A stretch of DNA of 64,000 bases from Rhodospirillales bacterium. GTDB taxonomy: Bacteria; Pseudomonadota; Alphaproteobacteria; CACIAM-22H2. The stretch covers positions 26,119 to 90,118 of the forward strand of contig CANFCX010000002.1 in the NCBI GenBank assembly GCA_947445225.1, written 5' to 3'. A program made the translations under genes and the position numbers. The notes under the pieces are model-generated. The model did not search any database and had not been told where the DNA came from. It saw only the letters and a program-made list of their open reading frames with translations. Shown here piece by piece: positions 22,202 to 54,868 of the stretch (positions are counted from its first letter, which is position 1; every line of letters starts with the position of its first letter).

Positions 22202-22213
22202 ACGCCGGTCGGA

Positions 22214-28635: not shown

Positions 28636-28647
28636 CGACGACAAAAC

Positions 28648-29946: not shown

Positions 29947-30665
29947 GCACCGGCGTTCTTTGCGTGATCCCGGCGCGCGGCGGGTCAAAAGGCCTGCCCC
30001 GGAAAAACGTCCTGCCCCTGGCCGGGCGGCCGCTAGTCGGCTACCCCATCGCGGCGGCGAAGGCGAGCGGCGTGTGCGATGCCATCTTCGTCACGACCGA
30101 CGACGAAGAAATCGCGGCGGTTGCCCGGGCCGAGGGCGCCGATGTGCCGTTCCTGCGGCCCGCCGATTTGGCCGGGGACCTGACGACGACGGAAGCCACG
30201 TTGCGCCACGCCTTGCTCGCCTATGAGTCCCATACCGGACGGCAATTCGACATTTGCGTCTTCCTGACGCCGACCGACATCTTTCGCAGCCCGGCCTGGA
30301 TTGCTCGCGCCGTGAACCTGCTGAAGGAACAGCCGAAACTCGAAAGCGCCTTCGCCGGTACCGCCACGCACAAGAATTACTGGGACCGCGAACCCGGCGG
30401 CGCCTGGGTTCGCGTCCTGCCCTGGATGCGCGACTACAGCTCGCGGCAGGTGCGCCGGAAAATCTATCGCGAGGACACCGGGCTCGCCTGCGCCAGCCGC
30501 GCCGATATCTGGCGCGGCGGACGGCGAATCGGCGACGTCGTTGAAATCATTCCCAACGACCTCCCCGAGACGGCGATCGACATCCATACCGCCTTCGACC
30601 TGTTCCTGGCGACCAAGGCGATCGAATATCTGCGCGCGCACCACCCCGAGCGCCTCCCCGTCTGA
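29943..30665 (+). CDS. acylneuraminate cytidylyltransferase family protein (CMP-ulosonic acid synthetase)
   Basis: N-terminal VIPARGGSKGLPRKN motif of NeuA/PseF/LegF family. Confidence 0.8.
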   Translation: MSTGVLCVIPARGGSKGLPRKNVLPLAGRPLVGYPIAAAKASGVCDAIFVTTDDEEIAAVARAEGADVPFLRPADLAGDLTTTEATLRHALLAYESHTGRQFDICVFLTPTDIFRSPAWIARAVNLLKEQPKLESAFAGTATHKNYWDREPGGAWVRVLPWMRDYSSRQVRRKIYREDTGLACASRADIWRGGRRIGDVVEIIPNDLPETAIDIHTAFDLFLATKAIEYLRAHHPERLPV

Positions 30666-32062
30666 TGGCAAAAACACCAACCGCGACTTCAGGCAACGAT
30701 GGACCTTTGGTCTCCATCATCGTACGCACAAAGAACGAGGAGCGCTGGATCGGTAGCTGCCTGCGCGCCATCCAACGCCAGACCTATCGCAATTACGAAA
30801 TTATCCTGGTCGATAACCTGTCGACCGACCAGACGGTGGCGAAGGCCGCGCCTTTCGGTGTCAAGCTGGTGCGAATCGACAAATTCCTGCCCGGCAAGTC
30901 CCTGAACGACGGCATCCGCGCCAGTCGTGGAGAGATTCTGGTCTGCCTTTCCGGGCACTGCATCCCGGTCAACGAGGTCTGGCTTGGCAATCTCGTCCGC
31001 AATCTCGGCGATTCAGACGTCGCGGGCGTTTATGGCCGTCAGGAGCCGTTGAGCTTTTCGTCCGATCTCGATAAACGCGACCTGCTCATTACATTTGGCC
31101 TCGACCGCAAAGTACAGGTCAGGGACAGCTTTTTTCACAACGCCAACAGCGCGATGCGGCGGGCGGTCTGGGATCGCTTTCCCTTCGACGAAACCGTGAC
31201 CAATATCGAGGATCGGGTGTGGGCGCGACAGGTCCTATCCGCGGGCATGAAGATCGTCTACGAGCCCGAAGCCAGCGTCTACCACTGGCACGGCATCCAT
31301 CAGGAGATGAATTCTGAGCGGGCGCGCAATGTCGTGCGCATCATGGAACAGATCGATGGTACCGAAAGGATCGGCGCCGGCCCCGATTCCGCCGACCTTC
31401 ACGTCGTGGCGATCGTGCCGAGCAAGGGCGAACCGCGCCGATTCAACAACGCGCCGCTCGCCCTGCCCACGCTACGCCACGCGCTGGCCGCCAAATACGT
31501 CAACCATGTATTTGTCGCCACCGACAATGACGAGATGGCGGCGGTGGCGCGATCCGCCGGCGCCGGCGTCATCATGCGGCCGCCGAGCCTGTCCGAAGAC
31601 TACGTTGATATCGTCGATGTGTTGCAATTCGCCTTGGAACGAATCGAGGCGCAGGGGACTGTCCCGGATTTGGTCGTCGCACTCGAGGAGACCCACCCCT
31701 TTCGCCCAATCGCCCTCGTGGATTCAATGATCGCCAAATTGGTGAAGGAAGGGATGGACAGCCTGGTGGCGGCCAAACGGGAGCCCCGCCGCGTGTGGCT
31801 GAGCGACGATGGCTCGATCCGAGATGCGGGAGAGGGCGGATTCATGCCGCGTCAGTTCAAACGCACCGTGGCGTTTATCGGGCTGTTCGGTCTCGCCTTC
31901 GTCACTCACCCCAGCCTGATCCGCAGCGGCAGCATGTTCGGCGGCAAGGCCGGCATCTACGAAATCGACGATCCCTTCTGCGGCATCGAAATCCGCAGCG
32001 AGGAGCATCTGAAAAAAGCCGGCCCGCTGTTCGAGGCGTGGTCCCGAGAGACCCGGCCGTGA
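30665..32062 (+). CDS. bifunctional fusion: N-terminal GT2 glycosyltransferase + C-terminal acylneuraminate-cytidylyltransferase-like domain
   Basis: N-term VSIIVRTKNEERWIGSCLRAIQRQTY...EIILVDN (GT2), C-term AIVPSKGEPRRFNNAPLA...ATDNDEMAAVARSAG (CTase). Confidence 0.65.
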   Translation: MAKTPTATSGNDGPLVSIIVRTKNEERWIGSCLRAIQRQTYRNYEIILVDNLSTDQTVAKAAPFGVKLVRIDKFLPGKSLNDGIRASRGEILVCLSGHCIPVNEVWLGNLVRNLGDSDVAGVYGRQEPLSFSSDLDKRDLLITFGLDRKVQVRDSFFHNANSAMRRAVWDRFPFDETVTNIEDRVWARQVLSAGMKIVYEPEASVYHWHGIHQEMNSERARNVVRIMEQIDGTERIGAGPDSADLHVVAIVPSKGEPRRFNNAPLALPTLRHALAAKYVNHVFVATDNDEMAAVARSAGAGVIMRPPSLSEDYVDIVDVLQFALERIEAQGTVPDLVVALEETHPFRPIALVDSMIAKLVKEGMDSLVAAKREPRRVWLSDDGSIRDAGEGGFMPRQFKRTVAFIGLFGLAFVTHPSLIRSGSMFGGKAGIYEIDDPFCGIEIRSEEHLKKAGPLFEAWSRETRP

Positions 32063-34933: not shown

Positions 34934-34967
34934 ACGCCGTCCCGGCGACAACCTCACGGATGGGGAC

Positions 34968-35816: not shown

Positions 35817-36752
35817 ATGGACGCGCAAGCCAAAATCAAACCGCGCCGCACACCGGTCCAAGAAATGATGTTCATTTACGGTCTGCGCGCGGGCTTGCCC
35901 TTTCCGGCGATCAAGGTCGCCGCGGAGGCTCTGGACGTTGCGCGCCGCCCGTTGGATTGCTGGCATCGCCGCGCCGTCGCCCGATCGGTGTCGGCCGGTT
36001 CGTCGCGGCGGAACCACATTCCCCGGGCGAAGGGATTTGAGTTCATCGATTCCACGATCGTCCCGGAGATCGCGGCGCTGGTTTCCGCCGGGCAGGCGCT
36101 TTACGCCGAACGCGCGCGTTCCGTGCCCCAGGATGGGGCGCAGCCTTTCTACGACATCCTAACTGCGCGCGACATTCTCGACCAAAAGGCATTTCTCGAC
36201 GCGGCCTTGTCGCCGGCGATGGTCGAGATCGCCGCGGGCTATTTCGGCACGATGCCACGGCTGCAAAACCTAATGCTCTGTGTCTCGCCAGGCCGTCCCG
36301 CCTCGGCCCAAAGCGAACTGTTCCATTTGGATAAACCAAACGTTGGATTCCTGCAGGCCTTCGTCAACGTGCTCGATGTGGGGCCGGAAAACGGTCCGCT
36401 AACCTTTCTGCCCGCCGATGTTACCGCCCGCGTTCGCAGCGCCACCGGTTATGACCGCCGCTCGTTTTCCGGCGATACACGTCTCCGCGACGAAGAGGTG
36501 TTTCAGCATTGCCGTCACGAGGACGCCGTCGCCCTGGTCGGTCCGGCCGGGCACGGCGCCTTCGTCGACACGTCGAATTGCCTGCATTTCGGCTCTCGAT
36601 GCCGCGGCGGTGTTCGCGTCGTTTGTATTATTCAATACGCCCCGGCGCATAAATGTCGCCCGTCCTTTTCCGGGCGTTTCGACGGTCATCGATTCGGCGG
36701 CGATCCGATCCGGAGTCTCTTGCTCGACGGCGCGAGGCCGCGGTCCGAGTGA
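35817..36752 (+). CDS. phytanoyl-CoA dioxygenase (PhyH) family Fe(II)/2-oxoglutarate oxygenase candidate
   Basis: H-x-D facial triad candidate (FHLDKP), ENGPLTFLP motif. Confidence 0.45.
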   Translation: MDAQAKIKPRRTPVQEMMFIYGLRAGLPFPAIKVAAEALDVARRPLDCWHRRAVARSVSAGSSRRNHIPRAKGFEFIDSTIVPEIAALVSAGQALYAERARSVPQDGAQPFYDILTARDILDQKAFLDAALSPAMVEIAAGYFGTMPRLQNLMLCVSPGRPASAQSELFHLDKPNVGFLQAFVNVLDVGPENGPLTFLPADVTARVRSATGYDRRSFSGDTRLRDEEVFQHCRHEDAVALVGPAGHGAFVDTSNCLHFGSRCRGGVRVVCIIQYAPAHKCRPSFSGRFDGHRFGGDPIRSLLLDGARPRSE

Positions 36753-38581
36753 CGGATTTGGGTTACAAGGACGCCATCCGCGCCGCACCGCGAGTCGGCT
36801 TCACGCGCCGCCGTGTCGCGATATTGCTGGTGTTACAGGTTGGCGCGGTCGCCTTCGAGGGCCTCGGCATTTCCATGCTGCTGCCTGTGTTCCAATTCAT
36901 GCAGGCCGGCGAGGCCATCGGCCCGCTCGCCGACAGCACGTTTTGGCGCTGGATCATCTCGGCGCACGAGGCCCTCGGCCTCGGGGTCAGCCTGGTGACC
37001 CTGCTGGCCGCGAGTTTCGCCGGAATTCTCTTTCGCCAGGCCTTCGTCTACGCGCGCATGATCTATGAGGCCCGGGTCAATGAGTCCTCCATCCAATCGC
37101 TGCGCAATCTCGGGTTTCGCCGCTATTTGACCGCGCGCGTCACCGCGCAGGAAGACGTTCGGCTCGGCGCCGTGGTTAACGACCTGGTCGTCGAAGCCCC
37201 GCGTGCCGTCGCCGCGGTGATGTGTGTGGTACGCGTCGCGGGCGGCACCATCCTGATGGCCTTCTACGCCGGATTGCTGACCCTGCTGTCGCCCTGGATG
37301 ACGCTTGCCTCTTCGATCGTCTTCGGGGCCGCCATCGGCATGCTCCGCCGCCTGCTCGGTCAAAGCCGGGAGGCCAGTCAACGGATCAGCGAATCCAGCC
37401 GCACCGTAGCCACCTTCCTCGCCGAGCGATTGAAGGCCGTGCGCCTCATTCGTTTATCCGGCACCCAAGCCGGCGAGATCGCCCGCATGGAAATGTTGAC
37501 GCTGCGACAGGCTAAAAGGGCCGTGCATTTCCAATCGCTGGGGGCGAGCATCAACACCTTGATGGAGCCGGTGGTCGTGGCCTTCAGCTTCGTCATGCTG
37601 TACGTGGCGACAACCGTTGCCGCGATGCCGCTCGAATCGATCGGGCTATTTCTGTTGATCCTGCTGCGTTTGCTCCCGGCCGTGACCGAGATGGTGAAGA
37701 TGCACCACGTCGTTCTGGGTTTCTCGGCGAGTCTGCGGGCCGTCGAACAAAGGCTGGCCGCCCTCGAATCGGCCCGCGAAGACAAAGGCGGGGAACTCAG
37801 CTTCAGCGGGCTGCGGCGGGCGATTCGCTTCAACGGCGTGACGTTCGATTACGGTCTGGGAACGGAAGTACCGGCGCTGCACGACATTTCCCTCGACATC
37901 CCCGCCGGTCAAATGACGGCGTTGGTCGGACCTTCTGGCAGCGGCAAGTCGACCTTGATCGACCTTCTGCCGCGCCTCCGCGATCCGACCGGCGGTGCGA
38001 TTTCGATCGATGGCGCGGTGCTCACCGAATTCGCGCTCGATTCCCTGCGCGCGGGCATCGCCTATGTGTCGCAGAGTCCCCAGATATTCGACGTTCTGGT
38101 CGCCGAGCACATCCGATACGGCAACCCGAAGGCCACGGATGACGAAGTGCGTGCCGCCGCCCAACTCGCGGGCGCGGCGGAGTTCATCGAGAAGTTGCCG
38201 AAGGGCTACGACACAGCACTTGGCGAAGATGGGCACCGGCTTTCCGGCGGCCAGCGCCAGCGTCTGGACCTCGCTCGCGCGCTCGCACGCCGCTCCCCCG
38301 TCCTTATCCTCGACGAGCCCACCAGCCAACTTGACGCCGACGCCGAGGTCAAGTTCCGAGAGGCGCTGCGCCGCATCCGGCGGGAAACGTCGACGACCAT
38401 CGTCGTGATTGCCCATCGCCTATCGACCGTTGCCGATGCCGATCAGATCATAGTCCTCGACGGCGGCCGACTCATCGCCATCGGCACACATGAGGCCCTG
38501 CTTCGCCGGGGTGGTTGGTATGCCGAGGCCTTTGCCAAACAGACGGCCGGCGCGGCCCCGCTTAACGCCACGGGAACATGA
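36749..38581 (+). CDS. ABC transporter, fused permease/ATP-binding (MsbA/PglK-like type I exporter)
   Basis: Six TM helices then Walker A GPSGSGKST, signature LSGGQRQRLDLARAL, Walker B ILDEPTS; GTG 36749 (GTGA overlap). Confidence 0.85.
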   Translation: MTDLGYKDAIRAAPRVGFTRRRVAILLVLQVGAVAFEGLGISMLLPVFQFMQAGEAIGPLADSTFWRWIISAHEALGLGVSLVTLLAASFAGILFRQAFVYARMIYEARVNESSIQSLRNLGFRRYLTARVTAQEDVRLGAVVNDLVVEAPRAVAAVMCVVRVAGGTILMAFYAGLLTLLSPWMTLASSIVFGAAIGMLRRLLGQSREASQRISESSRTVATFLAERLKAVRLIRLSGTQAGEIARMEMLTLRQAKRAVHFQSLGASINTLMEPVVVAFSFVMLYVATTVAAMPLESIGLFLLILLRLLPAVTEMVKMHHVVLGFSASLRAVEQRLAALESAREDKGGELSFSGLRRAIRFNGVTFDYGLGTEVPALHDISLDIPAGQMTALVGPSGSGKSTLIDLLPRLRDPTGGAISIDGAVLTEFALDSLRAGIAYVSQSPQIFDVLVAEHIRYGNPKATDDEVRAAAQLAGAAEFIEKLPKGYDTALGEDGHRLSGGQRQRLDLARALARRSPVLILDEPTSQLDADAEVKFREALRRIRRETSTTIVVIAHRLSTVADADQIIVLDGGRLIAIGTHEALLRRGGWYAEAFAKQTAGAAPLNATGT

Positions 38582-39402
38582 ACGACGATGCCGAATCCAC
38601 GAATCGGGATAGCGTCATTCGGGTGGCCGTGCTTACGACCGACACGCCGCACCACCGATATTATCTTCGCCGCCTGTGGAACGAGGCGCCGCAGGGTGTC
38701 GAATTCGTTCTCGCGCTTTTCGAGACCAGGCCCTATCCGTGGGGCCGCAATGCCAAGCGACATTTGCGCCAGACCATGCCGAATCTATGGCGCGGCCTTG
38801 CGCTCAACCCCTATTTCCAGCCCCTATCCTTCGCCCGCGCCCAGGCCGAGTTCGAAAATTCGCACTTCTTCCCCGATGGCGATAGCAGCCTTCCCAAATC
38901 CCTCCCGGTCAGAAAAGTCCGATCCGTCAACGATGACGACGCGGCGGTCGCACTTGCCGAGGCAGCGCCGGACCTTCAACTGGTCTATGGCACCGGCGTG
39001 GTCAAGGCACGGACCTTCGATGGGCCGCCGCTCGGCACGGTCAACGCTCATGGCGGAAAATTGCCGGCCTATCGCGGCCTCGACACCAATCTATGGGCGG
39101 TGCTTGAGGGGCGACCCCAGGATATGACCGTGACCCTCCACGGCATCGATGCCGGAATCGATACCGGCCAGATTTACGCCGCCGAGCCCATCGGCCGCAT
39201 CAAGGGCATGAACGCCGTTAATCTGCGCTGTCATACCGCGATCTTGTGCACACGCATGACCATCGATTTGCTCGCGCGTTTTGCCGCCGGCACCGCCAGA
39301 GCGGAGCCACAGACGGGCGAAGGCCGCTACTTCGGTCCGATGCCGTGGCTTCTCAGGCAGCGCGCCGGCCGGCTGCTGCGCGCCTATGCGGAGTCGCCAT
39401 GA
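38578..39402 (+). CDS. formyltransferase family protein (Fmt/PurN-like N-terminal domain)
   Basis: NAHGGKLPAYRGLD catalytic motif of N10-formyl-THF-dependent formyltransferases. Confidence 0.7.
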   Translation: MNDDAESTNRDSVIRVAVLTTDTPHHRYYLRRLWNEAPQGVEFVLALFETRPYPWGRNAKRHLRQTMPNLWRGLALNPYFQPLSFARAQAEFENSHFFPDGDSSLPKSLPVRKVRSVNDDDAAVALAEAAPDLQLVYGTGVVKARTFDGPPLGTVNAHGGKLPAYRGLDTNLWAVLEGRPQDMTVTLHGIDAGIDTGQIYAAEPIGRIKGMNAVNLRCHTAILCTRMTIDLLARFAAGTARAEPQTGEGRYFGPMPWLLRQRAGRLLRAYAESP

Positions 39403-40349
39403 TCGCCGACCCGCCCGGCCGCTACTTCGTACTGCTCTATCACGGCGTTCATGCCGATGATCTCGAACTCGGCCACCGCAATAGTTCGGGAAAACATGTG
39501 CCGCGCTCGCGTTTTGCCGCCGAGATGCGGCATTTGGCCGCGAACCGCCCGGTCGTGCGCTTGAGCGACATCGCCGCCGCCCATCGCGGCGAGCGCGACC
39601 TGCCGGCGGGTGCGGTCGCCGTCACCTTCGACGACGGCTTCTACAACAATCTCGCCGAGGCGCTGCCTGTTCTTGAGAAATTCGGCGTCCCCGCGACCTT
39701 CTATCTCGCGACCGGATTCATCGGCACCGGCCGCGCGATTTGGACCGACCGGTTAGAGGCAGCGATTGTGCAGACCAAACGCGACCGGCTGACTCTTGTT
39801 TTAAGCGGCGTGGAGACGCGTTTTCCCCTGACCGACAGACAATCCCGCCTAACCGCCCTATCCGCGGTCAAACGTGCCTGCAAAGGCCTGCCCAACGCCG
39901 ACAAGGACATCGTGGTGGCCGAGGTCGAAGCGCAGCTACAGGCTCAAGCCGACCCCAATCACCCGCTTTATCGCTTCCTCGATTGGGACGACGTGCGGAC
40001 GATGAACCGATCCCCCGTTGTCGATTTCGGCGCGCACACCGTGGACCATGTTTCGCTGGCGAAAGTGCCCAGGGCGGAGATGCGGCGGCAAATCGACGAC
40101 TCGGTGGCGGCTCTGGAAAGCGCATTGCAGCATCGCTGCACGTTGTTTTCCTACCCCGAGGGGCAGGCCGACGATTACGACGACCATGTCATCGGCCATC
40201 TGCGCGAACGCGGCTTCGATCACGCGCCGAGCGCCATGGCGGGGTCCAACGATCTTGGAATCACCAACCCCTTCCATATCCGCCGCGACATGGTCGGGTT
40301 CGAGAACCGGCCCTATCCATTCATGCCCCAACCGAAGAACGCGGCATGA
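39399..40349 (+). CDS. polysaccharide deacetylase (NodB homology domain)
   Basis: VTFDDGF and His-ligand motifs; ATGA overlap both ends. Confidence 0.75.
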   Translation: MIADPPGRYFVLLYHGVHADDLELGHRNSSGKHVPRSRFAAEMRHLAANRPVVRLSDIAAAHRGERDLPAGAVAVTFDDGFYNNLAEALPVLEKFGVPATFYLATGFIGTGRAIWTDRLEAAIVQTKRDRLTLVLSGVETRFPLTDRQSRLTALSAVKRACKGLPNADKDIVVAEVEAQLQAQADPNHPLYRFLDWDDVRTMNRSPVVDFGAHTVDHVSLAKVPRAEMRRQIDDSVAALESALQHRCTLFSYPEGQADDYDDHVIGHLRERGFDHAPSAMAGSNDLGITNPFHIRRDMVGFENRPYPFMPQPKNAA

Positions 40350-41362
40350 TCCTGTTCGGTCGCGATCTTGATAAGGATGTGGCCGTGGTCGCCGAAATCG
40401 GCGTCAACCACGAAGGCAACGTCGATGTGGCCTCCCGCATCCTTGCCGCCGCCGCGAAGGCCGGGGCCGATGCGGTCAAGCTGCAAAGTTACACGCCCGA
40501 GCGTTACACCTCCGCTTCGGACGCCGAACGTTTTGCCCGAGTCTCGCGCGTCGCCCTCGACATCGCCGCCCACGACCGCCTGGCAGCGGAGGCCAAGGCA
40601 ATCGGCATTCCCTTGTTTTCGACACCGCTTTCCGAAGATTGGGTCCAGCCGATCGCGGAATTCGCTCCGGCCATCAAGATCGCGAGCGGCGATCTGACGT
40701 TCGAGACCGTGATCCGCGCCGCCGCCCGCACCGGCAAGCCGGTCCTCCTCTCGACCGGCTGCGGTGTCGTCGATGAAATCGACCGGGCCGTGGGTTGGGT
40801 GCGCGACGAGGTTGGTCCGAAGGCATTGAACGAAAGGTTGGTTCTGCTGCATTGCGTGTCCGGCTATCCCACGCCCATTGAGCAGGCCAATGTGCGCGCC
40901 GTGCCTTTCCTGAAGGCACGGTACGGCCTGCCGGTCGGCTACTCCAACCATGTCATCGGGTCCGAGGCCGTGCTGGCCGCCGCGGCTTTGGGGGCGGCGG
41001 TTATCGAGGTCCACGTTACCGATGCCAATCTGCGGGAGACGAGCAGCTTCCGCGATCACCGTCTGTCGTTCACCGGGCCGGAACTGGCGGCGCTCATCCA
41101 ATCCATCCGGGGCGTGAAATCCGCGCTGGGCGATGCGGCGAAGACCGTGCAGGCGGCGGAGGCCGGGAATCGAGACGCAATCCGCAAGGGGATCGTCGCC
41201 AAACACGACCTTGCCGCGGGTGTCGTGTTGACCGATGACGATCTGCTCTATGCGCGCCCGGCAACACAGTTCCTCGCCGCCGAACGTCCGACACTTATCG
41301 GCCGGCGTTTGCTGCGCGCCTTGCGCCGGGGTGAGATCGTTCCGCGGGACGCGGTGAAATAA
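40346..41362 (+). CDS. N-acetylneuraminate synthase family protein (NeuB/LegI/PseI-type) with SAF domain
   Basis: VVAEIGVNHEGN...KAGADAVKLQ N-terminus and C-terminal SAF-like domain. Confidence 0.85.
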   Translation: MILFGRDLDKDVAVVAEIGVNHEGNVDVASRILAAAAKAGADAVKLQSYTPERYTSASDAERFARVSRVALDIAAHDRLAAEAKAIGIPLFSTPLSEDWVQPIAEFAPAIKIASGDLTFETVIRAAARTGKPVLLSTGCGVVDEIDRAVGWVRDEVGPKALNERLVLLHCVSGYPTPIEQANVRAVPFLKARYGLPVGYSNHVIGSEAVLAAAALGAAVIEVHVTDANLRETSSFRDHRLSFTGPELAALIQSIRGVKSALGDAAKTVQAAEAGNRDAIRKGIVAKHDLAAGVVLTDDDLLYARPATQFLAAERPTLIGRRLLRALRRGEIVPRDAVK

Positions 41363-41365: not shown

Positions 41366-43192
41366 ATGTGCGGCATTGCCGGCGCCATCCATAGAAGCCC
41401 GCTCGATGATAAGCGCATCGCCGCGACCTTCGCCGCGATGAAGAACCGCGGACCCGATGGCAGCGGCGTCCATCGCGGCACATTGGGCGGCTTTTCCGTG
41501 ACGCTGCTCCACACGCGACTTGCCATCATCGATCTCGATCCGCGCGCCAATCAGCCCTTCATTCGCGGCAACCTCGTGCTCATCTACAACGGCGAAATCT
41601 ACAATTACGTCGAGCTGCGCGCGGAGTTGGAGGGGCTTGGACACCGCTTCACGACGACATCGGATACCGAGGTCATCGTCGAGGCATGGCGGGAGTGGGG
41701 AAAGGCGTCGTTCGACCGCTTCGAGGGGATGTGGGCCTTCGCCCTTCTCGATACGGCCAAGGATCGTTTGATCCTGTCGCGCGACCGCTTCGGCGAAAAG
41801 CCGCTTTATTTCATGCGCCATGACGGCGCGTTGTATTTCGCTTCCGAGGTGAAATTTCTCGAGGCGCTTTCGGGTCATCGGCCCGCCGCCAATCTTCGCC
41901 AGGTGCGGCGCTACCTCGTTAATGGCTACAAGTCGTTATACAAGGGACAAGACACCTTCTTCGACGGCGTCGGCGCGTTGCCGGCCTCTACCTTCGCCGA
42001 GATGGCCGGTCCGGATTTGCCCATGCCCCGCCGCTATTGGCGACTGGAATACGCCCCACAGGCAATGTCGGCGCCTGACGCCGCCGATGGCGTGCGCGCA
42101 CGTTTGACGCGAGCCGTCGAAATCAGGCTGCGCGCGGACGTCCCGGTTGCCTTCTGCCTGTCCGGCGGCATCGATTCGGGAACCCTGGCGGCCCTGGCCG
42201 TCAAACATTTCGGCGCCCGCCTACATGCCTTTTCGATCATTGACGGCGACGCCCGCTACAACGAAAGCGCCAATATCGCGACCGTGGTCGAGGATCTCGG
42301 CTGCGAGCATCATATCGTCCACACATCGACCGAGGGTTTCCTCGATCGCCTTGACGCGCAAATCGCCTATCACGACGCCCCGGTGGCGACGATCACCTAT
42401 TACCTGCACGCGTTCCTGTCGCAGGCGATCGCGGCGCGCGGCTATAAGGTGGCGATCTCGGGCACGGCCGCCGACGAACTCTTCACCGGCTATTACGACC
42501 ACTACGCCTTCTGGCTGGCCGAACAGCGCGACCGCAACGATTTCCCGCATGTCCTCGACGAATGGCGCAAGAGTTATGGCGCCTTTGTCCAGAACCCGTT
42601 GCTCCAAGATCCCCTCCGTTTCGTCGCCGAGCCCTGCGCGCGCGACCATATTTTCCTGAACGCGGACTTCTTTTCTTCCCTGTTGCGCGATCCCTTCGAC
42701 GAACCCTTCGCGGAGGCGGCCTATAGCGGCAATTTGCTGCGGAACCGGATGCTGAACGAACTCCAACACGAATCCATCCCGGTGATCCTCGGCGAGGACG
42801 ACATGAATTCGATGGAATATTCCATCGAGAACCGTTCGCCCTATCTCGACCGCGATCTGGCGGAGTTCGCTTATCGGATTCCCAACGCGCACCTGATTCG
42901 CGACGGCTTCGTCAAATGGCCGCTGCGCGAAGCCGGGGCCGGAAGCCTGCATGACCGCGTGCGCCTGGACCGGCGCAAGCGGGGATTCAATGCTTCCATC
43001 GAATCGCTGCTCGACCGCCGCGATCCGCGGGTTCGGGAGCGCCTGCTCGCCCCCGGTCCAATTTTCGACGTGGTTGATCGCAAGCGTTTTCTCGAATTCT
43101 TCGACGCCGACATGACCGACAACAGTTTCTCGAAATTCCTGTTCAGTTTCGTTTCGGCGCGCCTGTTCCTCGATCGCCGAGCAGCGGCTTGA
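41366..43192 (+). CDS. asparagine synthetase B-type glutamine amidotransferase (copy 1)
   Basis: MCGIAG nucleophile, PP-loop CLSGGIDS. Confidence 0.85.
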   Translation: MCGIAGAIHRSPLDDKRIAATFAAMKNRGPDGSGVHRGTLGGFSVTLLHTRLAIIDLDPRANQPFIRGNLVLIYNGEIYNYVELRAELEGLGHRFTTTSDTEVIVEAWREWGKASFDRFEGMWAFALLDTAKDRLILSRDRFGEKPLYFMRHDGALYFASEVKFLEALSGHRPAANLRQVRRYLVNGYKSLYKGQDTFFDGVGALPASTFAEMAGPDLPMPRRYWRLEYAPQAMSAPDAADGVRARLTRAVEIRLRADVPVAFCLSGGIDSGTLAALAVKHFGARLHAFSIIDGDARYNESANIATVVEDLGCEHHIVHTSTEGFLDRLDAQIAYHDAPVATITYYLHAFLSQAIAARGYKVAISGTAADELFTGYYDHYAFWLAEQRDRNDFPHVLDEWRKSYGAFVQNPLLQDPLRFVAEPCARDHIFLNADFFSSLLRDPFDEPFAEAAYSGNLLRNRMLNELQHESIPVILGEDDMNSMEYSIENRSPYLDRDLAEFAYRIPNAHLIRDGFVKWPLREAGAGSLHDRVRLDRRKRGFNASIESLLDRRDPRVRERLLAPGPIFDVVDRKRFLEFFDADMTDNSFSKFLFSFVSARLFLDRRAAA

Positions 43193-43809
43193 CGGCGACG
43201 ATCGCCATCGTGGACTACGGACTGGGCAACCTTACGTCGGTGGCCGGGGCGGTCGAACGGCTTGGTTTCTTACCCAGGCTTGCCGCCGACCCCGCCGCGC
43301 TGGAAACCGCCGACAAATTTATCCTGCCGGGGGTTGGCGCCTTCGGCGATGGAATGGCCGAGCTGCATCGGCGCGGCCTCGCCGACGCGCTGAACCGACT
43401 GGTTCTGGGGGCGGGCAGGCCGATCCTGGGCATTTGCCTGGGCGCTCAACTGCTCGCCCGCGGCAGCGCCGAGTTCGGCGATCACCGCGGCCTGGGGTGG
43501 CTGGACGCCGAGGTTGTTCGCATCGACCCAGCGGACACGAACCTGCGCGTCCCCCATGTCGGATGGAACGAGTTGCGCCGGAAACGCGATAGCGTGTTGT
43601 TCAAGAACGTCCCCGACGACGCGCTTTTCTACTACGTCCATAGTTTTCACATTTGCGGCGACCGCGACGTCATCACCGGCGAGACCGATTACGGCGGCCC
43701 GGTGACGGCGACGGTCGAGAAGGGGCGCATTTACGGAACCCAATTTCATCCCGAAAAGAGCCAGCGCCACGGCCTCACCGTCTTGCGCAATTTCCTCGAA
43801 GAGGGCTGA
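43189..43809 (+). CDS. HisH-like glutamine amidotransferase subunit (WbuY-type)
   Basis: IAIVDYGLGNL, GICLGAQLL catalytic Cys, HPE; TTG start overlapping upstream stop. Confidence 0.85.
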   Translation: MTATIAIVDYGLGNLTSVAGAVERLGFLPRLAADPAALETADKFILPGVGAFGDGMAELHRRGLADALNRLVLGAGRPILGICLGAQLLARGSAEFGDHRGLGWLDAEVVRIDPADTNLRVPHVGWNELRRKRDSVLFKNVPDDALFYYVHSFHICGDRDVITGETDYGGPVTATVEKGRIYGTQFHPEKSQRHGLTVLRNFLEEG

Positions 43810-43817: not shown

Positions 43818-44564
43818 GTGTTACGCAAACGCCTGGTGACCGTCCTCACCTTCAACGACGGGGTCTTGTTCCGGACGAAGGATTTCCTGCCGGACTATCG
43901 CTATACGCTCAATTTCGTGGATGCGTGGTCGGTGGACGAAATCGTTGTCCTCGATGTCACGCGGCCGGGCAGCGGCCAGCGGGCCAATTTTCTCGAGGTC
44001 GTGCGCCGTTTCGCCGGTAAGTGTTTCGTGCCGCTGGCCGCCGGCGGTGGCCTTCGCCATCTCGATGACGTGCGCGAGATGATGGGCATCGGCGCGGACA
44101 AAGTCGTGGTCAATTCCGCCGCGATTCGGCGGCCGGAATTCATTACCGAAATCGCGCGGGCCTACGGCGCGCAATGTGTTGTCGTCTGCATCGACGCCAG
44201 AAAGCGCGCCGAGGGCGGCTATGAAGTATTCGCGGATTTCGCGTCCTCCCCCACCGGCCTGACACCGGAAAATTGGGCACAGGAGGCGGTGCGGCGGGGA
44301 GCCGGTGAGATTCTTATCCAGGCCGTGGACCGCGATGGGTCGCTCGAGGGTTATGATCTCGAACTCTGCCGGGCGGTCGCCGATGCGGTCGACGTACCGG
44401 TCCTGATCCTCGGCGGCGCCGGCCAATGGCAGCACTTCGTCGAGGGATTCCGGGAGGCCCGCGCCTCCGCCGTGTGCACCCAAAACATCTACCACTTCAC
44501 CGAGACCGCGATCAAAAGCGCGAAGACCTTTCTTACCAAAGCCGGAATCGAAATCCGCCCATGA
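43818..44564 (+). CDS. HisF-like cyclase subunit (WbuZ-type)
   Basis: (beta/alpha)8 HisF signatures (VPLAAGGG, DKVVVNSAA); GTG 43818 preceded by GAGGAGGG. Confidence 0.85.
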   Translation: MLRKRLVTVLTFNDGVLFRTKDFLPDYRYTLNFVDAWSVDEIVVLDVTRPGSGQRANFLEVVRRFAGKCFVPLAAGGGLRHLDDVREMMGIGADKVVVNSAAIRRPEFITEIARAYGAQCVVVCIDARKRAEGGYEVFADFASSPTGLTPENWAQEAVRRGAGEILIQAVDRDGSLEGYDLELCRAVADAVDVPVLILGGAGQWQHFVEGFREARASAVCTQNIYHFTETAIKSAKTFLTKAGIEIRP

Positions 44565-44587: not shown

Positions 44588-45697
44588 ATGTTCCAGTTCT
44601 GCAAAAAATGTCTGATGCCGTCGAGCAGGCCCCGTATCGGCTTTAATCCCGAGGGGATATGCAACGGTTGCCTCAATGCCGAAGAAAAGAACCATGTGGA
44701 TTGGGGGGCCAGGGGCCAGGAATTCCTGGATCTCATCGCCGCCTATAAATCCACGGATGGTAGTTGGGATTGTGTCGTGCCGTGGAGCGGCGGCAAGGAT
44801 TCAAGCGCGATCGCATGGCGGCTGAAATTCGACTACGGCCTTAATCCGCTACTCGTCACGTTTTCGCCGATGATCCCCTCCGAGATCGGGCAACACAATC
44901 GCGAACAGATGCTGAAGGCTGGATTCGACCACCTTCTCGTCCGGCCGAATCAGAAAGTAGCGCGCCACCTCGCCCATCGCTTTTTCGTCGAGCGTGGCAA
45001 CCCCAAGGTGGCCTGGGACGCCGGCGTTAATACGATCCCCTTGCAGGTCGCCGTGCGGTATCGCATCCCGCTGGTCTTTTACGCCGAACATGGCGAAAGC
45101 GAATATGGCGGCAAGGTCCGCAACGAAGAGTCGAAAAAAATTCGCGACTTCACCGAAGTCATCGAACATCAGATCGGCGACGATCCGCGCAACTGGGTCG
45201 ATGACAAGATCGGGGCCGGCGATCTCAACCCCTATCACTATCCCGACCGCGACGCCGTCGCCGCCGTGGGCGTGAAGGCGCTCTATTTCGCCTACTTCCA
45301 CCGATGGGACGTGGTGTCCAATTACGAACTCATCGCCGAAAAGATCGACTTCAAGACCGTTCCCTGGGGCCGCAGCGAAGGCACGTTCACGAGTTTCGAC
45401 AGCCTCGACGACAAGATCGACGACCTCTATTACTACCTTCAATTCATCAAATTCGGATTTGGCCGAGCCGTGCGCGACGCCAGCCGGCAAATCCAAAACG
45501 GCCGCCTGACCCGCGCCCAAGGTCTGGACCTAGCCCAACGTTATGACGGCGAGTTCCCTGGGGAACATATCGATGCCACGCTCGAATTCCTGGGCCTCGG
45601 CCGCGGCGAGTTCGAGCACATCGTCGATCTTCATCGCAATCCCGAAATCTGGACGATTCAAGGCAATGAATGGCATTTGCGCAACCCGTTGCGTTAA
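44588..45697 (+). CDS. N-acetyl sugar amidotransferase (WbuX/PseA-like, PP-loop)
   Basis: N-terminal CxxC...CxxC (CKKCLMP...CNGCLN) and PP-loop VPWSGGKDSS typical of TIGR03573-type proteins. Confidence 0.8.
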   Translation: MFQFCKKCLMPSSRPRIGFNPEGICNGCLNAEEKNHVDWGARGQEFLDLIAAYKSTDGSWDCVVPWSGGKDSSAIAWRLKFDYGLNPLLVTFSPMIPSEIGQHNREQMLKAGFDHLLVRPNQKVARHLAHRFFVERGNPKVAWDAGVNTIPLQVAVRYRIPLVFYAEHGESEYGGKVRNEESKKIRDFTEVIEHQIGDDPRNWVDDKIGAGDLNPYHYPDRDAVAAVGVKALYFAYFHRWDVVSNYELIAEKIDFKTVPWGRSEGTFTSFDSLDDKIDDLYYYLQFIKFGFGRAVRDASRQIQNGRLTRAQGLDLAQRYDGEFPGEHIDATLEFLGLGRGEFEHIVDLHRNPEIWTIQGNEWHLRNPLR

Positions 45698-45720: not shown

Positions 45721-46596
45721 ATGCCGAACGTTAAGCACACGAATTTTCCCTGCGACCTATGCGGCGCCGACCGACCGGTCGAGGTACCGCATAGCCGCGA
45801 ATACACCGGCGACCAGCCCATCCACATCTGTGGCCAATGTGGGTTTGTCTATGTTCGCAGCCGGCGATCGGCCAAGGACATCGCGGCGTCCTGGTCCGAC
45901 GACATCTTCGGCGAGGGGTACACGGCCCGCATCCCGGCGGTGACCGCCCGGCTGACCTTTGTCGCCGCCTTTCTCGACGAACAAATCGGGCTGAAGGGCA
46001 AGACGTTATGCGACATCGGCGGCGGCGAGGGTGAATTTCTCCGCATCGCCGGTGGGCAGCCCTATGGCGCCCGTACCTTCGGGATCGAGCCGTCGCCGGC
46101 CAATTGCGCCCGGCTTCAAGAGCTTGGCATCGAACATTTCAACGGCACGATCGAGGATTATCGGGATCGGCCGGAAGGGCAAAAACGTCGCTTCGACGTC
46201 GTCACCATCATGTGGACGCTGGAAAATTGCCAGTCCTGCCGCGCCATGCTCGACGCCGCTCATGACGTGCTCGCCGATGGCGGTCACATCCTGGTGGCCA
46301 CGGGCAGCCGCCTGCTCGTGCCGTTCAAGAAGCCGCTGCACTATTATTTGAGCAAGAACCCGGCCGACACCCATTGCTTCCGGTTCAGCGCCAATTCCTT
46401 GCGCGGAATTCTCGCCGTTTCCGGCTTTGCTCCCGTCGCCATCAATCGTTATGTCGATCAGGACTGGCTGGTCGTGGTCGCACGCAAGGAGGCCAAGGGT
46501 AAATCGATCCCCTGGCAAGGGGACGATCCCAAGGCGATGTCGGATTTCTTCGAACGCTGGCACCGCGACACCCAAACCCATTTCCGAGACATTTGA
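45721..46596 (+). CDS. class I SAM-dependent methyltransferase with N-terminal Zn-ribbon
   Basis: CDLCGA...CGQCGF Zn-ribbon then motif I LCDIGGGEGEF. Confidence 0.55.
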   Translation: MPNVKHTNFPCDLCGADRPVEVPHSREYTGDQPIHICGQCGFVYVRSRRSAKDIAASWSDDIFGEGYTARIPAVTARLTFVAAFLDEQIGLKGKTLCDIGGGEGEFLRIAGGQPYGARTFGIEPSPANCARLQELGIEHFNGTIEDYRDRPEGQKRRFDVVTIMWTLENCQSCRAMLDAAHDVLADGGHILVATGSRLLVPFKKPLHYYLSKNPADTHCFRFSANSLRGILAVSGFAPVAINRYVDQDWLVVVARKEAKGKSIPWQGDDPKAMSDFFERWHRDTQTHFRDI

Positions 46597-47684
46597 CGGC
46601 CGCCCCCATGCCCCAAATCCCCTATGACAGCTTCGTGGCGCCGCTCGCCGGCCAGCGCATCCTTCTGGTCGGCGGCGCCGGTTTCATCGGACACAATTTG
46701 GCCCTGGCGCTTCGTCGCGCCAATGCCGAGGTCATGGTCGCCGACAATCTGGTGGTCAACAACCTGATCGCCAATGTCGGCGACCCGGCGCTCGATCCCC
46801 TGCGCCGGCAGATGTATCTCGACTTTCTGCTCGACCGGTTCAGCCTGATGCGCGATGCCGGCGTGTTGATCCGCAATGCCGACGCCCGCAACTTGACCGA
46901 TGTCACGCGCCTCTTCGATGAATTCAAACCCAACAAGGTCGTTCAATTGGCGGCCATCGCCAGCGCCGTCGATGCCCGCAAGGATCCAGGCCTTTGTTTC
47001 GACCTTCAACTCCTCACCCTTCGCAATGTGCTGGAATTGTGCCGTCGCGGCGGTGACCTGATCGAGGTGATGTTTCTTAGCTCCAGTACCGTCTACGGCG
47101 ATTTCGAGACGCCGACCGTGGATGAGGCCACCCGCCCCCAGCCCCGCGGCATCTATGCGAACGCGAAATACATGGGCGAAAGACTGGTTCGCACTTATGC
47201 CGACCAACATGGCATCGCCTGCGTCGTGGTTCGTCCCAGCGCGCTGTATGGCGAACGTTGCATCAGCGGGCGCGTCTCCCAGGCCTTCATTGAAAACGCG
47301 CTTTCGGGGAAACCGTTGTTGCTCGAGGGCGGCGGCGATGGCCGGCTCGATTTCACCTATATCGAGGACCTGGTGCAGGGCATGGCGCGGGCGCTCTCGC
47401 TTAAAAAGCGCCCGGGTTACACGAACACGTTCAATCTGACCTTCGGCAACGCGCGCACCATCGCCGAGCTTGCGGCCATCGTTAAGAGCGTCGTGCCAAC
47501 GGCGAGGCTGGAGGAGAGACCGCGCGCCGCCGACAAACCGGTGCGCGGCACGCTGTCGACCAAGAAGGCCGAAGAGGAGTTGGGCTTCAAGGCTGGGTGG
47601 GCTCTGGAAACTGGGTATAGGCAATATTGCGAGTGGTACGCGGATCAATGGCAACGCACGGTCGCGCGGCGGAACCACGGTTGA
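46593..47684 (+). CDS. NAD-dependent epimerase/dehydratase (extended SDR) family protein
   Basis: ILLVGGAGFIGHNL Rossmann, YxxxK (YANAKYMGE); TTG 46593 or ATG 46608. Confidence 0.8.
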   Translation: MTAAPMPQIPYDSFVAPLAGQRILLVGGAGFIGHNLALALRRANAEVMVADNLVVNNLIANVGDPALDPLRRQMYLDFLLDRFSLMRDAGVLIRNADARNLTDVTRLFDEFKPNKVVQLAAIASAVDARKDPGLCFDLQLLTLRNVLELCRRGGDLIEVMFLSSSTVYGDFETPTVDEATRPQPRGIYANAKYMGERLVRTYADQHGIACVVVRPSALYGERCISGRVSQAFIENALSGKPLLLEGGGDGRLDFTYIEDLVQGMARALSLKKRPGYTNTFNLTFGNARTIAELAAIVKSVVPTARLEERPRAADKPVRGTLSTKKAEEELGFKAGWALETGYRQYCEWYADQWQRTVARRNHG

Positions 47685-54866: not shown

Positions 54867-54868
54867 CC

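What the first reader, a model, noticed from the sequence alone, without database searches (positions are those of the whole stretch)
38578..41362. Formyltransferase - polysaccharide deacetylase - NeuB-type synthase triplet suggests an N-formyl nonulosonic acid
A PurN/Fmt-type formyltransferase (NAHGGKLPAYRGLD), a NodB-type deacetylase and the first NeuB-type synthase are chained by ATGA overlaps. Removing an N-acetyl group and installing N-formyl before or after condensation is the simplest reading. N-formylated nonulosonic acids are known in a few O-antigens but the responsible enzymes are poorly defined.
Basis: inference. Interest (0 to 1): 0.6.

Follow-up and report, generated by a model that had tools for sequence, protein, structure and literature searches.

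The report
Formyltransferase–deacetylase pair coupled to sialic-acid-like synthase
Three overlapping genes (a formyltransferase, a de-N-acetylase and a sialic-acid-type synthase) form a conserved unit, fused into one protein in some bacteria, that most likely swaps an acetyl for a formyl group on a sialic-acid-like surface sugar; no member has ever been tested.

Summary
Genes at 38578-39402 (formyltransferase fold, FT), 39399-40349 (CE4 de-N-acetylase) and 40346-41362 (NeuB + SAF) are chained by ATGA overlaps.

It is not a chance adjacency:
- The FT defines a small family: 292 cluster representatives among 1.84 billion proteins.
- It occurs in 33 species genomes from about ten phyla, all uncultured.
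- FT is followed directly by the CE4 gene in 32 of 34 loci, counting the window.
- The two genes overlap by 4 nt in 23 of 32 loci, and a NeuB gene is adjacent almost always.
- FT::CE4 single-polypeptide fusions exist in two lineages; FT::NeuB and CE4::NeuB fusions exist too.

Both enzymes keep complete catalytic sets and look cytoplasmic. The CE4 is PgaB/IcaB-like, not ArnD-like. The FT is not an orthologue of PseJ or Fmt.

Best reading: an N-acyl editing module that strips the inherited N-acetyl and installs N-formyl around the condensation step. The chemistry, the site and the order of steps are inferred.

A 2026 preprint reports CMP-nonulosonates carrying formyl plus a free amine in an anammox bacterium and points to a deacetylase and a formyltransferase. 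An anammox MAG carries this same triplet.

The window has no sugar aminotransferase, NeuC or PseG, so the sugar's identity is open.

Verdict: new variant of a known kind.

The parts
38578..39402 (+). Formyltransferase-fold protein (FT), 274 aa, founding member here of a distinct FT clade
   Evidence: Pfam PF00551 33.4 bits. Fmt, ArnA and PurN equivalogs score far below their cut-offs. N156, H158 and D195 are invariant in 61 homologues and align to the Fmt catalytic residues. AlphaFold pLDDT is 96; Foldseek matches Fmt, ArnA-FT, WbkC and PseJ with TM 0.5-0.63. The ATG overlaps the upstream stop as ATGA.
39399..40349 (+). Cytoplasmic CE4 de-N-acetylase of the PgaB/IcaB (permuted) type, 316 aa
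   Evidence: Pfam PF01522 79.9 bits. Invariant residues are Y14-H15, D78-D79, H213, H217, Y252-P-E-G255 and R296. Alignment to PgaB covers the YH and TFDD motifs. pLDDT is 96; Foldseek best hits are PgaB, IcaB, PplD and BpsB at E about 1e-14, against ArnD at 4e-4. No signal peptide or transmembrane segment is visible in the sequence.
40346..41362 (+). NeuB-family ulosonic acid synthase (NeuB-1) with SAF domain, 338 aa
   Evidence: Pfam NeuB 197.6 bits plus SAF 31.1 bits. The NeuB equivalog scores 243, below its 399.65 cut-off; the PseI equivalog scores 205, below 340.25. PDB best hits are PseI 8h2c at 141 bits and NeuB 1xuu at 112 bits.
41366..43192 (+). AsnB-type glutamine-dependent amidotransferase (N-terminal MCGIAG), 608 aa; fourth core member of the cassette
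   Evidence: Asn_synthase 190 bits plus GATase_7; TIGR01536 369 bits. Present next to the triplet in 28 of 34 loci at 43-60% identity.
43189..43809 (+). HisH-like glutaminase subunit (WbuY-like)
   Evidence: TIGR01855 214 bits; found in 7 related loci.
43818..44564 (+). HisF/WbuZ-like cyclase subunit (glycosyl amidation-associated)
   Evidence: TIGR03572 WbuZ 221 bits, below its 299.7 cut-off. The gene call comes from the identical contig.
44588..45697 (+). WbuX-family N-acetyl sugar amidotransferase (acetamido to acetamidino), 369 aa
   Evidence: TIGR03573 313.7 bits, above its 203.2 cut-off; found in 20 of 34 loci.
45721..46596 (+). SAM-dependent methyltransferase
   Evidence: Methyltransf_23 68 bits.
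46608..47684 (+). Extended SDR (epimerase/oxidoreductase type), orthologue of the cassette SDR
   Evidence: Pfam Epimerase 145 bits. Orthologues share 38-63% identity in 17 other loci (96% in L005), all with SSS[M/T]VYG and YxxxK and none with a TDE or TSE motif. LegB model TIGR04180 scores only 50 bits against a 475 cut-off.
36749..38581 (+). MsbA/HepA-like ABC exporter whose stop overlaps the FT start
   Evidence: ABC_tran 116 bits; HepA_fam 357 bits, MsbA 334 bits. GTGA overlap at 36749, ATGA at 38578.
29943..30665 (+). CMP-sugar synthetase candidate (CTP_transf_3)
   Evidence: PF02348 70.9 bits. PseF model scores 119 bits, below its 205.7 cut-off. CTP_transf_3 genes accompany the triplet in at least 21 of 34 loci.
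30665..32062 (+). GT2::CTP_transf_3 fusion protein, an architecture that recurs beside the triplet elsewhere
   Evidence: Glycos_transf_2 84.5 bits plus CTP_transf_3 36.5 bits. The same architecture occurs in L038 (anammox MAG), L045, L020, L024 and L005.

Best explanation
FT, CE4 and NeuB-1 form a cytoplasmic N-acyl editing and condensation unit for a CMP-activated, sialic-acid-like (ulosonic) sugar.

1. The PgaB-type metal-dependent CE4 removes the N-acetyl group that the sugar inherits from its HexNAc precursor. This is the future N5 position.
2. The formyltransferase, using N10-formyl-tetrahydrofolate and its Asn-His-Asp triad, formylates the exposed amine.
3. NeuB-1 performs the PEP condensation immediately before or after this exchange.
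4. The product, a 5-formamido ulosonic acid, is then further tailored. Candidates are WbuX/HisH/HisF (acetamidino formation on another N-acetyl, if one is present), the AsnB-type amidotransferase and the methyltransferase.
5. It is activated by a CTP_transf_3 enzyme and used for a surface glycan.

Shown: gene identity, folds, intact catalytic residues, obligate coupling and fusion of FT with CE4, and association with NeuB.

Inferred: the formyl donor, the substrate, the nitrogen edited, the order of steps and the final structure.
For: **Coupling of the genes**
- FT is followed directly by CE4 in 32 of 34 loci, counting the window, spanning about ten phyla.
- The FT stop and CE4 start overlap by 4 nt in 23 of 32 loci, across GC contents from AT-rich SAR86 to 64% GC.
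- Two independent FT::CE4 single-chain fusions exist, P0350 and P0370. They were seen on 9 and 6 contigs from different samples.
- FT::NeuB (P0357) and CE4::NeuB (P0156) fusions also exist.

**Enzyme features**
- FT keeps N156, H158 and D195 invariant and aligned to the Fmt catalytic residues. The model is confident and has the FT fold.
- CE4 keeps the full PgaB-type set: H15, D78, D79, H213, H217.
- CE4's nearest structures are GlcNAc de-N-acetylases at E about 1e-14, not the deformylase ArnD at 4e-4 with TM 0.33.
- Neither protein has a visible signal peptide (sequence).

**Independence from an aminotransferase**
- The triplet occurs both with and without a DegT aminotransferase nearby. None was found in the 64-kb window or in L001/L008, L005, L012, L020, L027, L033 and L038.
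- A deacetylase is needed only for an inherited N-acetyl. This argues that FT uses the amine freed by CE4.

**Precedent**
- CMP-nonulosonates with N-formyl and a free amine occur in Ca. Kuenenia, whose leg-like cluster holds a deacetylase and a formyltransferase (preprint 10.64898/2026.04.20.719630).
- An anammox Scalinduaceae MAG carries NeuB-FT-CE4 with 33% (FT) and 38% (CE4) identity to the window proteins.
- 5-N-formyl-legionaminic acid exists in Halorubrum (PMC6137143).
Against: - There is no biochemical datum for any family member, and every genome carrying it is a MAG or SAG.
- Homology of the Kuenenia genes to this family could not be verified. No Kuenenia-named hit appeared.
- The Kuenenia product, with a free amine plus a formyl group, fits the rival dual-site model equally well.
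- WbuX needs an acetamido group and CE4 removes one. This implies two nitrogens on the sugar, yet the window encodes no sugar aminotransferase in 64 kb.
- The cassette lacks any recognisable NDP-sugar hydrolase or 2-epimerase (NeuC/LegG, PseG) and any classical 4,6-dehydratase. The precursor, and even the carbon number of the sugar, are therefore unknown.
- Known sugar N-formyltransferases all act on aminotransferase-derived amines of NDP-sugars, not on de-acetylated positions (my knowledge of PseJ, ArnA, VioF, WbkC and WlaRD).
Confidence: 0.45

Rival explanations
1. Dual-site editing. FT replaces the usual acetyltransferase and formylates the amine introduced by the aminotransferase (the future N7), as PseJ does. 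CE4 separately removes the inherited N5-acetyl. That either leaves a free, charge-neutralising amine or allows re-acylation by the GNAT with a non-acetyl group.
For: - The Ca. Kuenenia CMP-nonulosonates carry one free amine and one formylated amine.
- All characterised sugar formyltransferases act on aminotransferase products; PDB neighbours are ArnA, WbkC, VioF and PseJ.
- DegT is in 19 of 34 loci and its best PDB matches are the 4-aminotransferases Per and ArnB.
- A GNAT or LbH acyltransferase accompanies most DegT-containing loci.
Against: - FT is coupled or fused to CE4 and not to DegT.
- The triplet occurs without DegT in the 64-kb window and in seven other roughly 20-kb loci.
- If FT acted on the DegT amine, there would be no reason for the obligate CE4 partnership.
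Confidence: 0.27
2. Transient protection, as in ArnA/ArnD. FT formylates an amine to pull an unfavourable transamination, or to protect the amine during hydrolysis and condensation. CE4 later removes the formyl group, so the final sugar carries no formyl.
For: - FT plus a CE4 hydrolase is exactly the enzyme pair of the Ara4N pathway.
- ArnA-FT is among the best sequence and fold hits.
- The cassette DegT resembles ArnB at about 209 bits.
- Strict co-occurrence suits an add-and-remove cycle.
Against: - CE4 is PgaB/IcaB-like; ArnD is a remote match (E 4e-4, TM 0.33) and no ArnD model hit was found.
- Fusing the adding and the removing enzyme in one cytoplasmic polypeptide would risk a futile cycle.
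- The window lacks DegT.
- Formyl persists on the CMP-sugar in Kuenenia.
Confidence: 0.1
3. FT and/or CE4 have been recruited for a different step. They might supply the missing release or 2-epimerisation of the NDP-sugar that NeuC/LegG/PseG normally perform, or act on a non-sugar substrate such as a lipid or peptide.
For: - The cassette has no recognisable NeuC/LegG/PseG. FT and CE4 are the only universally conserved members without a canonical pathway role.
- FT has family-specific invariant residues (T21, T23, H25, H26, E49) and a 50-residue insertion absent from known FTs.
Against: - Both proteins keep the complete catalytic sets of their parent families.
- No precedent exists for glycosyl-phosphate hydrolysis by either fold.
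- Fusion to NeuB argues for a sugar substrate.
Confidence: 0.08

Closest known systems
PseJ of Anoxybacillus kamchatkensis (PDB 6CI2/6CI4), the formyltransferase of the 7-N-formyl-pseudaminic acid pathway
   Same: It has the formyltransferase fold with the N-H-D triad. It is encoded in a nonulosonic acid gene cluster. Foldseek probability is 1.0.
   Different: Sequence similarity is local only: 31 bits over residues 154-204. PseJ is a minimal enzyme of about 190 aa (TM 0.48 on the query). It has no CE4 partner. One PDB entry (6ci4) is a crystal soaked with a UDP-4-amino-4,6-dideoxy sugar. The window FT has a 50-residue insertion and a distinct N-terminal TTDTPHH motif.
ArnA formyltransferase domain plus ArnD deformylase (L-Ara4N lipid A modification)
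   Same: A formyltransferase and a CE4-fold hydrolase are dedicated to the same sugar nitrogen. ArnA-FT is among the top sequence and structure hits.
   Different: ArnD is only a remote structural match to this CE4 (E 4e-4, TM 0.33). ArnD works on a lipid-linked substrate after transfer, whereas here the two enzymes are cytoplasmic, overlapping or fused. The chemistry proposed here removes acetyl, not formyl.
PgaB / IcaB / BpsB / PplD de-N-acetylases
   Same: Circularly permuted CE4 fold with an N-terminal YH acid motif, TFDD and a His-His metal site. These are the best sequence and fold matches.
   Different: Those enzymes are secreted or periplasmic and act on polymers (PNAG, rhamnopolysaccharide). 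This protein has no signal peptide. It carries an insertion of about 80 residues (110-190) and sits in a nucleotide-sugar pathway.
Deacetylase plus formyltransferase in the leg-like cluster of Ca. Kuenenia stuttgartiensis (SugarBase preprint, 10.64898/2026.04.20.719630)
   Same: A deacetylase, a formyltransferase and neuB lie together. CMP-nonulosonates with N-formyl and a free amine were detected by MS. Another anammox lineage (a Scalinduaceae MAG, L038) carries a NeuB-FT-CE4 triplet homologous to the window's.
   Different: I could not obtain the Kuenenia sequences, so family identity is unverified. That cluster is reported to include legB, legC and legG, which the window lacks. No enzyme assays were reported.
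Halorubrum sp. PV6 5-N-formyl-legionaminic acid locus (HrrPV6_1050 formyltransferase; PMC6137143)
   Same: It yields a nonulosonic acid formylated at N5, the position predicted here, with a candidate formyltransferase in the leg cluster.
   Different: No deacetylase is reported there. The locus is archaeal and has canonical LegB, LegC, LegG, LegH, LegI and LegF. The sequence relationship was not tested.

Membership tests
Formyltransferase superfamily (Pfam PF00551, PurN/Fmt/ArnA-FT fold) | Profile match above the gathering threshold | tested here: met
   33.4 bits against 26.1, but only profile positions 62-152 match.
Formyltransferase superfamily (Pfam PF00551, PurN/Fmt/ArnA-FT fold) | Catalytic Asn-His-Asp triad | tested here: met
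   N156, H158 and D195 are invariant in 61 homologues. They align with the N, H and LDTG Asp of P. aeruginosa Fmt.
Formyltransferase superfamily (Pfam PF00551, PurN/Fmt/ArnA-FT fold) | Three-dimensional fold | tested here: met
   pLDDT 96. Foldseek probability is 1.0 to Fmt, FDH hydrolase domain, ArnA-FT, WbkC, VioF and PseJ, with TM 0.5-0.63.
Formyltransferase superfamily (Pfam PF00551, PurN/Fmt/ArnA-FT fold) | Use of N10-formyl-tetrahydrofolate as donor | not testable with these tools
   Needs an enzyme assay.
Methionyl-tRNA formyltransferase (Fmt, TIGR00460) | Equivalog score and the C-terminal tRNA-binding domain PF02911 | tested here: not met
   36 bits against a 201.5 cut-off; no PF02911 domain.
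PseJ-type nonulosonate formyltransferase | Full-length similarity to PseJ | tested here: not met
   31 bits over 50 residues only; TM 0.48 on the query.
CE4 / NodB-homology de-N-acetylases (PF01522) | Profile match above threshold | tested here: met
   79.9 bits against 23.1, in two stretches split by an insertion.
CE4 / NodB-homology de-N-acetylases (PF01522) | Asp-His-His metal site plus catalytic base Asp and acid His | tested here: met
   D78, D79, H213, H217 and H15 are invariant in 61 homologues. TFDD and YH align to PgaB. Assignment of roles rests on published PgaB work (my knowledge).
PgaB/IcaB permuted CE4 subfamily | Closest fold and N-terminal position of the acid-His motif | tested here: met
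   Foldseek top 10 hits are PgaB, IcaB, PplD and BpsB at E 3e-14 to 6e-12. The PgaB equivalog score (68, cut-off 322) is not met, so this is not PgaB itself.
ArnD-type deformylase | Sequence or fold similarity to ArnD | tested here: not met
   No ArnD model hit at E up to 0.01. Foldseek to 8t0j gives E 4e-4 and TM 0.33.
NeuB family synthases (PF03102 + SAF) | NeuB catalytic domain plus C-terminal SAF domain | tested here: met
   197.6 and 31.1 bits.
N-acetylneuraminate synthase (TIGR03569) / pseudaminic acid synthase (TIGR03586) | Equivalog cut-off | tested here: not met
   243 bits against 399.65, and 205 bits against 340.25. The sugar substrate therefore cannot be assigned.
Canonical legionaminic/pseudaminic acid pathway | 4,6-dehydratase, aminotransferase, N-acetyltransferase, NDP-sugar hydrolase (LegG/PseG), synthase and CMP-synthetase linked to the synthase | tested here: not met
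   - The window has no DegT, GNAT, NeuC or PseG match in 64 kb.
- The cassette SDR lacks the TDE/TDK motif.
- A true PseB exists at 53655-54866 but is linked to NeuB-2.
- Related loci have DegT and GNAT but still no NeuC or PseG.

The most novel reading that the evidence does not exclude
The FT::CE4 pair is the signature of a previously unrecognised ulosonic-acid pathway in uncultured bacteria. The cassette is NeuB, FT, CE4, AsnB, WbuX, a CTP-transferase and a non-dehydratase SDR, with GFO, DegT and GNAT in some loci. It has no 4,6-dehydratase and no NeuC/LegG/PseG. It would make a sugar that is not neuraminic, legionaminic or pseudaminic acid. FT-CE4 would act as a dedicated bifunctional N-acyl exchange enzyme, possibly in a complex with the synthase.
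Probability: 0.25. Interest if true: 0.8.

Novelty: new variant of a known kind. Interest (0 to 1): 0.58.

Why it matters
Sialic-acid-like sugars cap bacterial surface glycans. They govern charge, phage recognition and immune interaction, and their N-acyl groups are the main source of diversity.

How positions inherited as N-acetyl become formyl, free amine or other acyl groups is unknown. Examples are 5-N-formyl-legionaminic acid, and free-amine sugars in anammox bacteria.

This module offers concrete, compact candidates, including natural single-chain fusions, that can be tested in vitro. If they work as proposed, they could also serve as tools for chemo-enzymatic synthesis of N-modified nonulosonates.

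The family occurs only in uncultured lineages so far (Nitrospira, SAR86, anammox, Acidimicrobiia and others). It also marks an unexplored pool of surface-sugar chemistry.

Tried and rejected
- **Orthology to PseJ, Fmt, PurN or ArnA-FT.** Rejected on scores and architecture.
- **CE4 as an ArnD-like deformylase.** Tested by NCBIfam and Foldseek; ArnD is only a remote match.
- **Link to Ca. Kuenenia.** The genome scan with the FT alignment returned 33 loci but no Kuenenia. A search with the anammox (Scalinduaceae) FT gave no Kuenenia-named hit. The link remains indirect.
- **Cassette GNAT as PseH-like.** The PDB search was uninformative, with only generic GNAT hits at E of 3e-4 or weaker.
- **Cassette SDR as LegB, a 4,6-dehydratase or a UXS-type decarboxylase.** The motif check shows SSS[M/T]VYG, so this is rejected.
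- **Window GFO as the cassette GFO.** It is WlbA-like (227 bits to 3q2k) and only 22-30% identical to the cassette GFO. It probably belongs to the neighbouring module.
- **Literature search for PDB 8VR2/8VR3/8VR5.** Nothing relevant.
- **Promoter and terminator scan of 34-48.5 kb.** Nothing above shuffled expectation, consistent with one long operon but not informative.
- **NeuC/LegG/PseG, HAD phosphatase or Nudix among conserved neighbours.** None found, by Pfam annotations of fetched loci and by all-vs-all clustering. I had no NeuC or PseG seed sequence for a direct tblastn.

Full report
**Observation.** The window is about 64% GC. From roughly 25 kb to its end it carries one long + strand glycan-biosynthesis locus.

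| Gene | Coordinates | Length | Domain evidence |
|---|---|---|---|
| FT | 38578-39402 | 274 aa | Formyl_trans_N 33.4 bits (cut-off 26.1), profile positions 62-152 only |
| CE4 | 39399-40349 | 316 aa | Polysacc_deac_1 79.9 bits |
| NeuB-1 | 40346-41362 | 338 aa | NeuB 197.6 bits + SAF 31.1 bits |

The sequence shows ATGA start/stop overlaps at 38578, 39399 and 40346. The first links the FT gene to an upstream MsbA/HepA-like ABC exporter. The quoted motif is FT residues 156-169. A second NeuB lies at about 55.7-56.8 kb.

**The proteins.**

*FT.* It belongs to the formyltransferase superfamily but to none of its named families.
- The Fmt, ArnA and PurN equivalogs score 19-43 bits against cut-offs of 150-777.
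- PDB sequence hits are weak: Fmt 43 bits, ArnA 38 bits, and PseJ 31 bits over 50 residues.
- In 61 homologues N156, H158 and D195 are invariant. So are R166-G167, D169-T170, W173 and an N-terminal T21/T23/H25/H26 motif. The triad aligns with the catalytic residues of Fmt.
- The AlphaFold model is confident (pLDDT 96). It matches Fmt, FDH hydrolase domain, ArnA-FT, WbkC, VioF and PseJ with TM 0.5-0.63. That is the fold plus a family-specific insertion (residues about 45-100) and no C-terminal domain.

*CE4.* It has invariant Y14-H15, D78-D79, H213, H217, YPEG252-255 and R296.
- Its YH and TFDD motifs align to PgaB.
- Its model (pLDDT 96) is closest to PgaB, IcaB, PplD and BpsB (E 3e-14 to 6e-12). 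ArnD is a remote match (E 4e-4, TM 0.33).
- It is therefore a PgaB/IcaB-type permuted, metal-dependent de-N-acylase. Unlike those enzymes it has no signal peptide (sequence).

*NeuB-1.* It scores below both the NeuB and PseI equivalog cut-offs. It is about equally distant from PseI (141 bits) and NeuB (112 bits) in the PDB. Its sugar substrate cannot be assigned.

**Conservation.**
- A homology search found about 130 FT relatives, nearly all from metagenomes.
- An exhaustive profile search found 292 cluster representatives at E up to 1e-30 among 1.84 billion.
- A scan of 185,579 species genomes found 33 loci, all MAGs or SAGs. They come from Alphaproteobacteria, Acidimicrobiia, Dehalococcoidia, Solirubrobacterales, Syntrophomonadaceae, Acidobacteriota, Nitrospira, SAR86, Verrucomicrobia, Latescibacterota and Bacteroidota.
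- The window itself matches a metagenome contig. The closest genome locus (L005) is 90% identical in FT.

My own ORF clustering and seed searches count the following in 34 loci, including the window:

| Gene family | Loci |
|---|---|
| FT directly followed by CE4 | 32 |
| NeuB adjacent, upstream or downstream | 33 |
| AsnB-type amidotransferase | 28 |
| CTP_transf_3 | at least 21 |
| WbuX | 20 |
| The SDR | 20 |
| A GFO/IDH/MocA oxidoreductase | 20 |
| DegT | 19 |
| A GNAT | 17 |

The FT stop and CE4 start overlap by 4 nt in 23 of 32 loci, across very different GC contents.

**Fusions.** The profile search also revealed single-chain fusions.
- P0350 (564 aa) and P0370 (543 aa) carry FT then CE4 in one polypeptide. 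Each was seen on several contigs from independent samples.
- P0357 is FT::NeuB and P0156 is CE4::NeuB.

Taken together, these results show that the three proteins work as a unit.

**What the unit most likely does.** Both enzymes look catalytically competent and cytoplasmic. They sit in a pathway that ends in a CMP-activated ulosonic acid. Three arrangements of the chemistry are possible.

1. *Swap.* CE4 removes the N-acetyl inherited from the HexNAc precursor and FT formylates that same nitrogen.
2. *Dual-site.* FT formylates the aminotransferase-derived amine, and CE4 frees the other nitrogen.
3. *Transient formylation*, as in ArnA/ArnD.

I favour the swap for three reasons.
- FT is coupled or fused to CE4, not to DegT.
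- A deacetylase is needed only for an inherited acetyl.
- The triplet occurs without any DegT-type gene in the 64-kb window and in seven other roughly 20-kb loci.

The ArnD-like model is weakened by the CE4's PgaB-like rather than ArnD-like structure. Fusing an adding and a removing enzyme also makes little sense. The dual-site model stays a serious rival. All characterised sugar formyltransferases use aminotransferase products. It also explains the only chemical precedent just as well.

**Literature.**
- A preprint of April 2026 (10.64898/2026.04.20.719630) reports CMP-nonulosonates with one free and one formylated amine in Ca. Kuenenia stuttgartiensis. It notes a deacetylase and a formyltransferase inside a leg-like cluster.
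- An earlier preprint from the same group found an unmasked amine on Kuenenia S-layer glycans.
- I could not obtain the Kuenenia sequences, and a targeted search gave no Kuenenia-named hit.
- However, a CE4 homologue from a Scalinduaceae (anammox) MAG sits in a NeuB-FT-CE4 triplet. Its FT is 33% identical to the window FT over the full length, and its CE4 is 38% identical.
- 5-N-formyl-legionaminic acid is known in Halorubrum, with a candidate formyltransferase but no deacetylase (PMC6137143).
- PseJ, the 7-N-formyl-Pse enzyme, has solved structures but is not an orthologue.

**Unresolved context.** The conserved cassette is not a canonical Leg or Pse pathway.
- Its SDR has SSS[M/T]VYG and YxxxK but none of the acid/base residues of 4,6-dehydratases or decarboxylases. 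This is inference from established SDR enzymology.
- No NeuC/LegG or PseG homologue appears in any fetched locus.
- The cassette DegT resembles Per and ArnB more than PseC or PglE.
- In the window, DegT and GNAT are absent altogether. Yet WbuX/HisH/HisF, which act on an acetamido group, are present. Either the missing genes lie elsewhere or the sugar is unusual.
- The role of the AsnB-type amidotransferase, the fourth most conserved member, is unknown.

**Verdict.**
The functional link is strong; the chemistry is plausible but unproven.
- The module is a new variant of a known kind (N-formyl nonulosonate biosynthesis). It comprises an uncharacterised formyltransferase clade obligately paired or fused with a PgaB-type de-N-acetylase.
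- It has been seen so far only in uncultured bacteria.

Noticed in passing
window 53655-58810: A second ulosonic-acid module. It holds a true PseB (TIGR03589 510 bits, above the 408 cut-off), an RmlD-like reductase (54863-55708), NeuB-2 (about 55705-56775), a GT2, a KdsB-like CTP_transf_3 (57407-58180) and a methyltransferase. It has no aminotransferase. A dehydratase plus a reductase feeding a NeuB would give a 9-deoxy, 7-hydroxy (mono-amino) nonulosonate, which would be unusual.
   Followed up: partly
window 29943-35810: A DAHP synthase (TIGR01361 280 bits, above the 268 cut-off; 33147-34043) and an AroE-like shikimate dehydrogenase (34190-34933) are embedded in the glycan operon. They lie between a WlbA-like GFO oxidoreductase (32059-33150; 227 bits to PDB 3q2k), two CTP_transf_3 genes and a methyltransferase. 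This suggests a third, heptulosonate- or octulosonate-type activated sugar.
   Followed up: partly
window 30665-32062; L038 6802-8172; L045 11280-12698; L020 11658-13022: A GT2::CTP_transf_3 fusion protein (about 455-472 aa) recurs beside the FT-CE4-NeuB unit in distant lineages, including an anammox MAG. It may couple CMP activation to transfer.
   Followed up: partly
whole window (1-64000): There are three PEP-condensing synthases (two NeuB, one DAHP-synthase type), four CTP_transf_3 domains and three AsnB-like genes. No DegT-type aminotransferase, NeuC/LegG or PseG was detected in 64 kb.
   Followed up: yes
window 52109-53830; related loci L007, L009, L028, L031: A NodU-like carbamoyltransferase (Carbam_trans_N/C) lies in the window locus. 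A carbamoyltransferase-like protein of about 600 aa also recurs next to the FT cassette in four other genomes (my cluster c36). This hints at O-carbamoylation of the sugar.
   Followed up: no
window 28636-29946, 35817-36752, 47627-49273: Three sizeable ORFs (436, 311 and 548 aa) inside the operon have coding-type GC3 but no Pfam or NCBIfam match. They are candidates for the missing steps or for novel glycosyltransferases.
   Followed up: partly
L012 10001-10492 (OY282368.1): This is the only locus lacking the CE4 gene. Its FT match covers only query residues 14-175 and runs straight into NeuB, which looks like a decayed copy. A second, 29%-identical FT-like gene lies 4 kb downstream.
   Followed up: no
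L026 6036-17696 (Nitrospira CP092081.1; same in L029, L030, L034): A compact, gap-free 12-gene operon: CTP-transferase, DegT, SDR, NeuB, FT, CE4, GFO, GNAT, AsnB, WbuX, a 132-aa protein and a methyltransferase. It is the cleanest version of the cassette and a good target for heterologous expression.
   Followed up: partly
L038 and L043-L046: In anammox and marine loci the triplet is flanked by several B12-binding radical SAM enzymes, and by CTP_transf_3/NeuB fusions (in either domain order) in L038 and L043/L044 (not L045/L046). This suggests C-methylated or otherwise extended ulosonic acids.
   Followed up: no
window 27331-28635 and 22202-23791: A NanM-type putative sugar O-methyltransferase (TIGR04371 100 bits, above the 44 cut-off) lies at the start of the locus. 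A heparinase II/III-like protein lies just upstream. leuC, leuD, leuB, asd and rpe at 16-22 kb indicate a chromosomal context.
   Followed up: no
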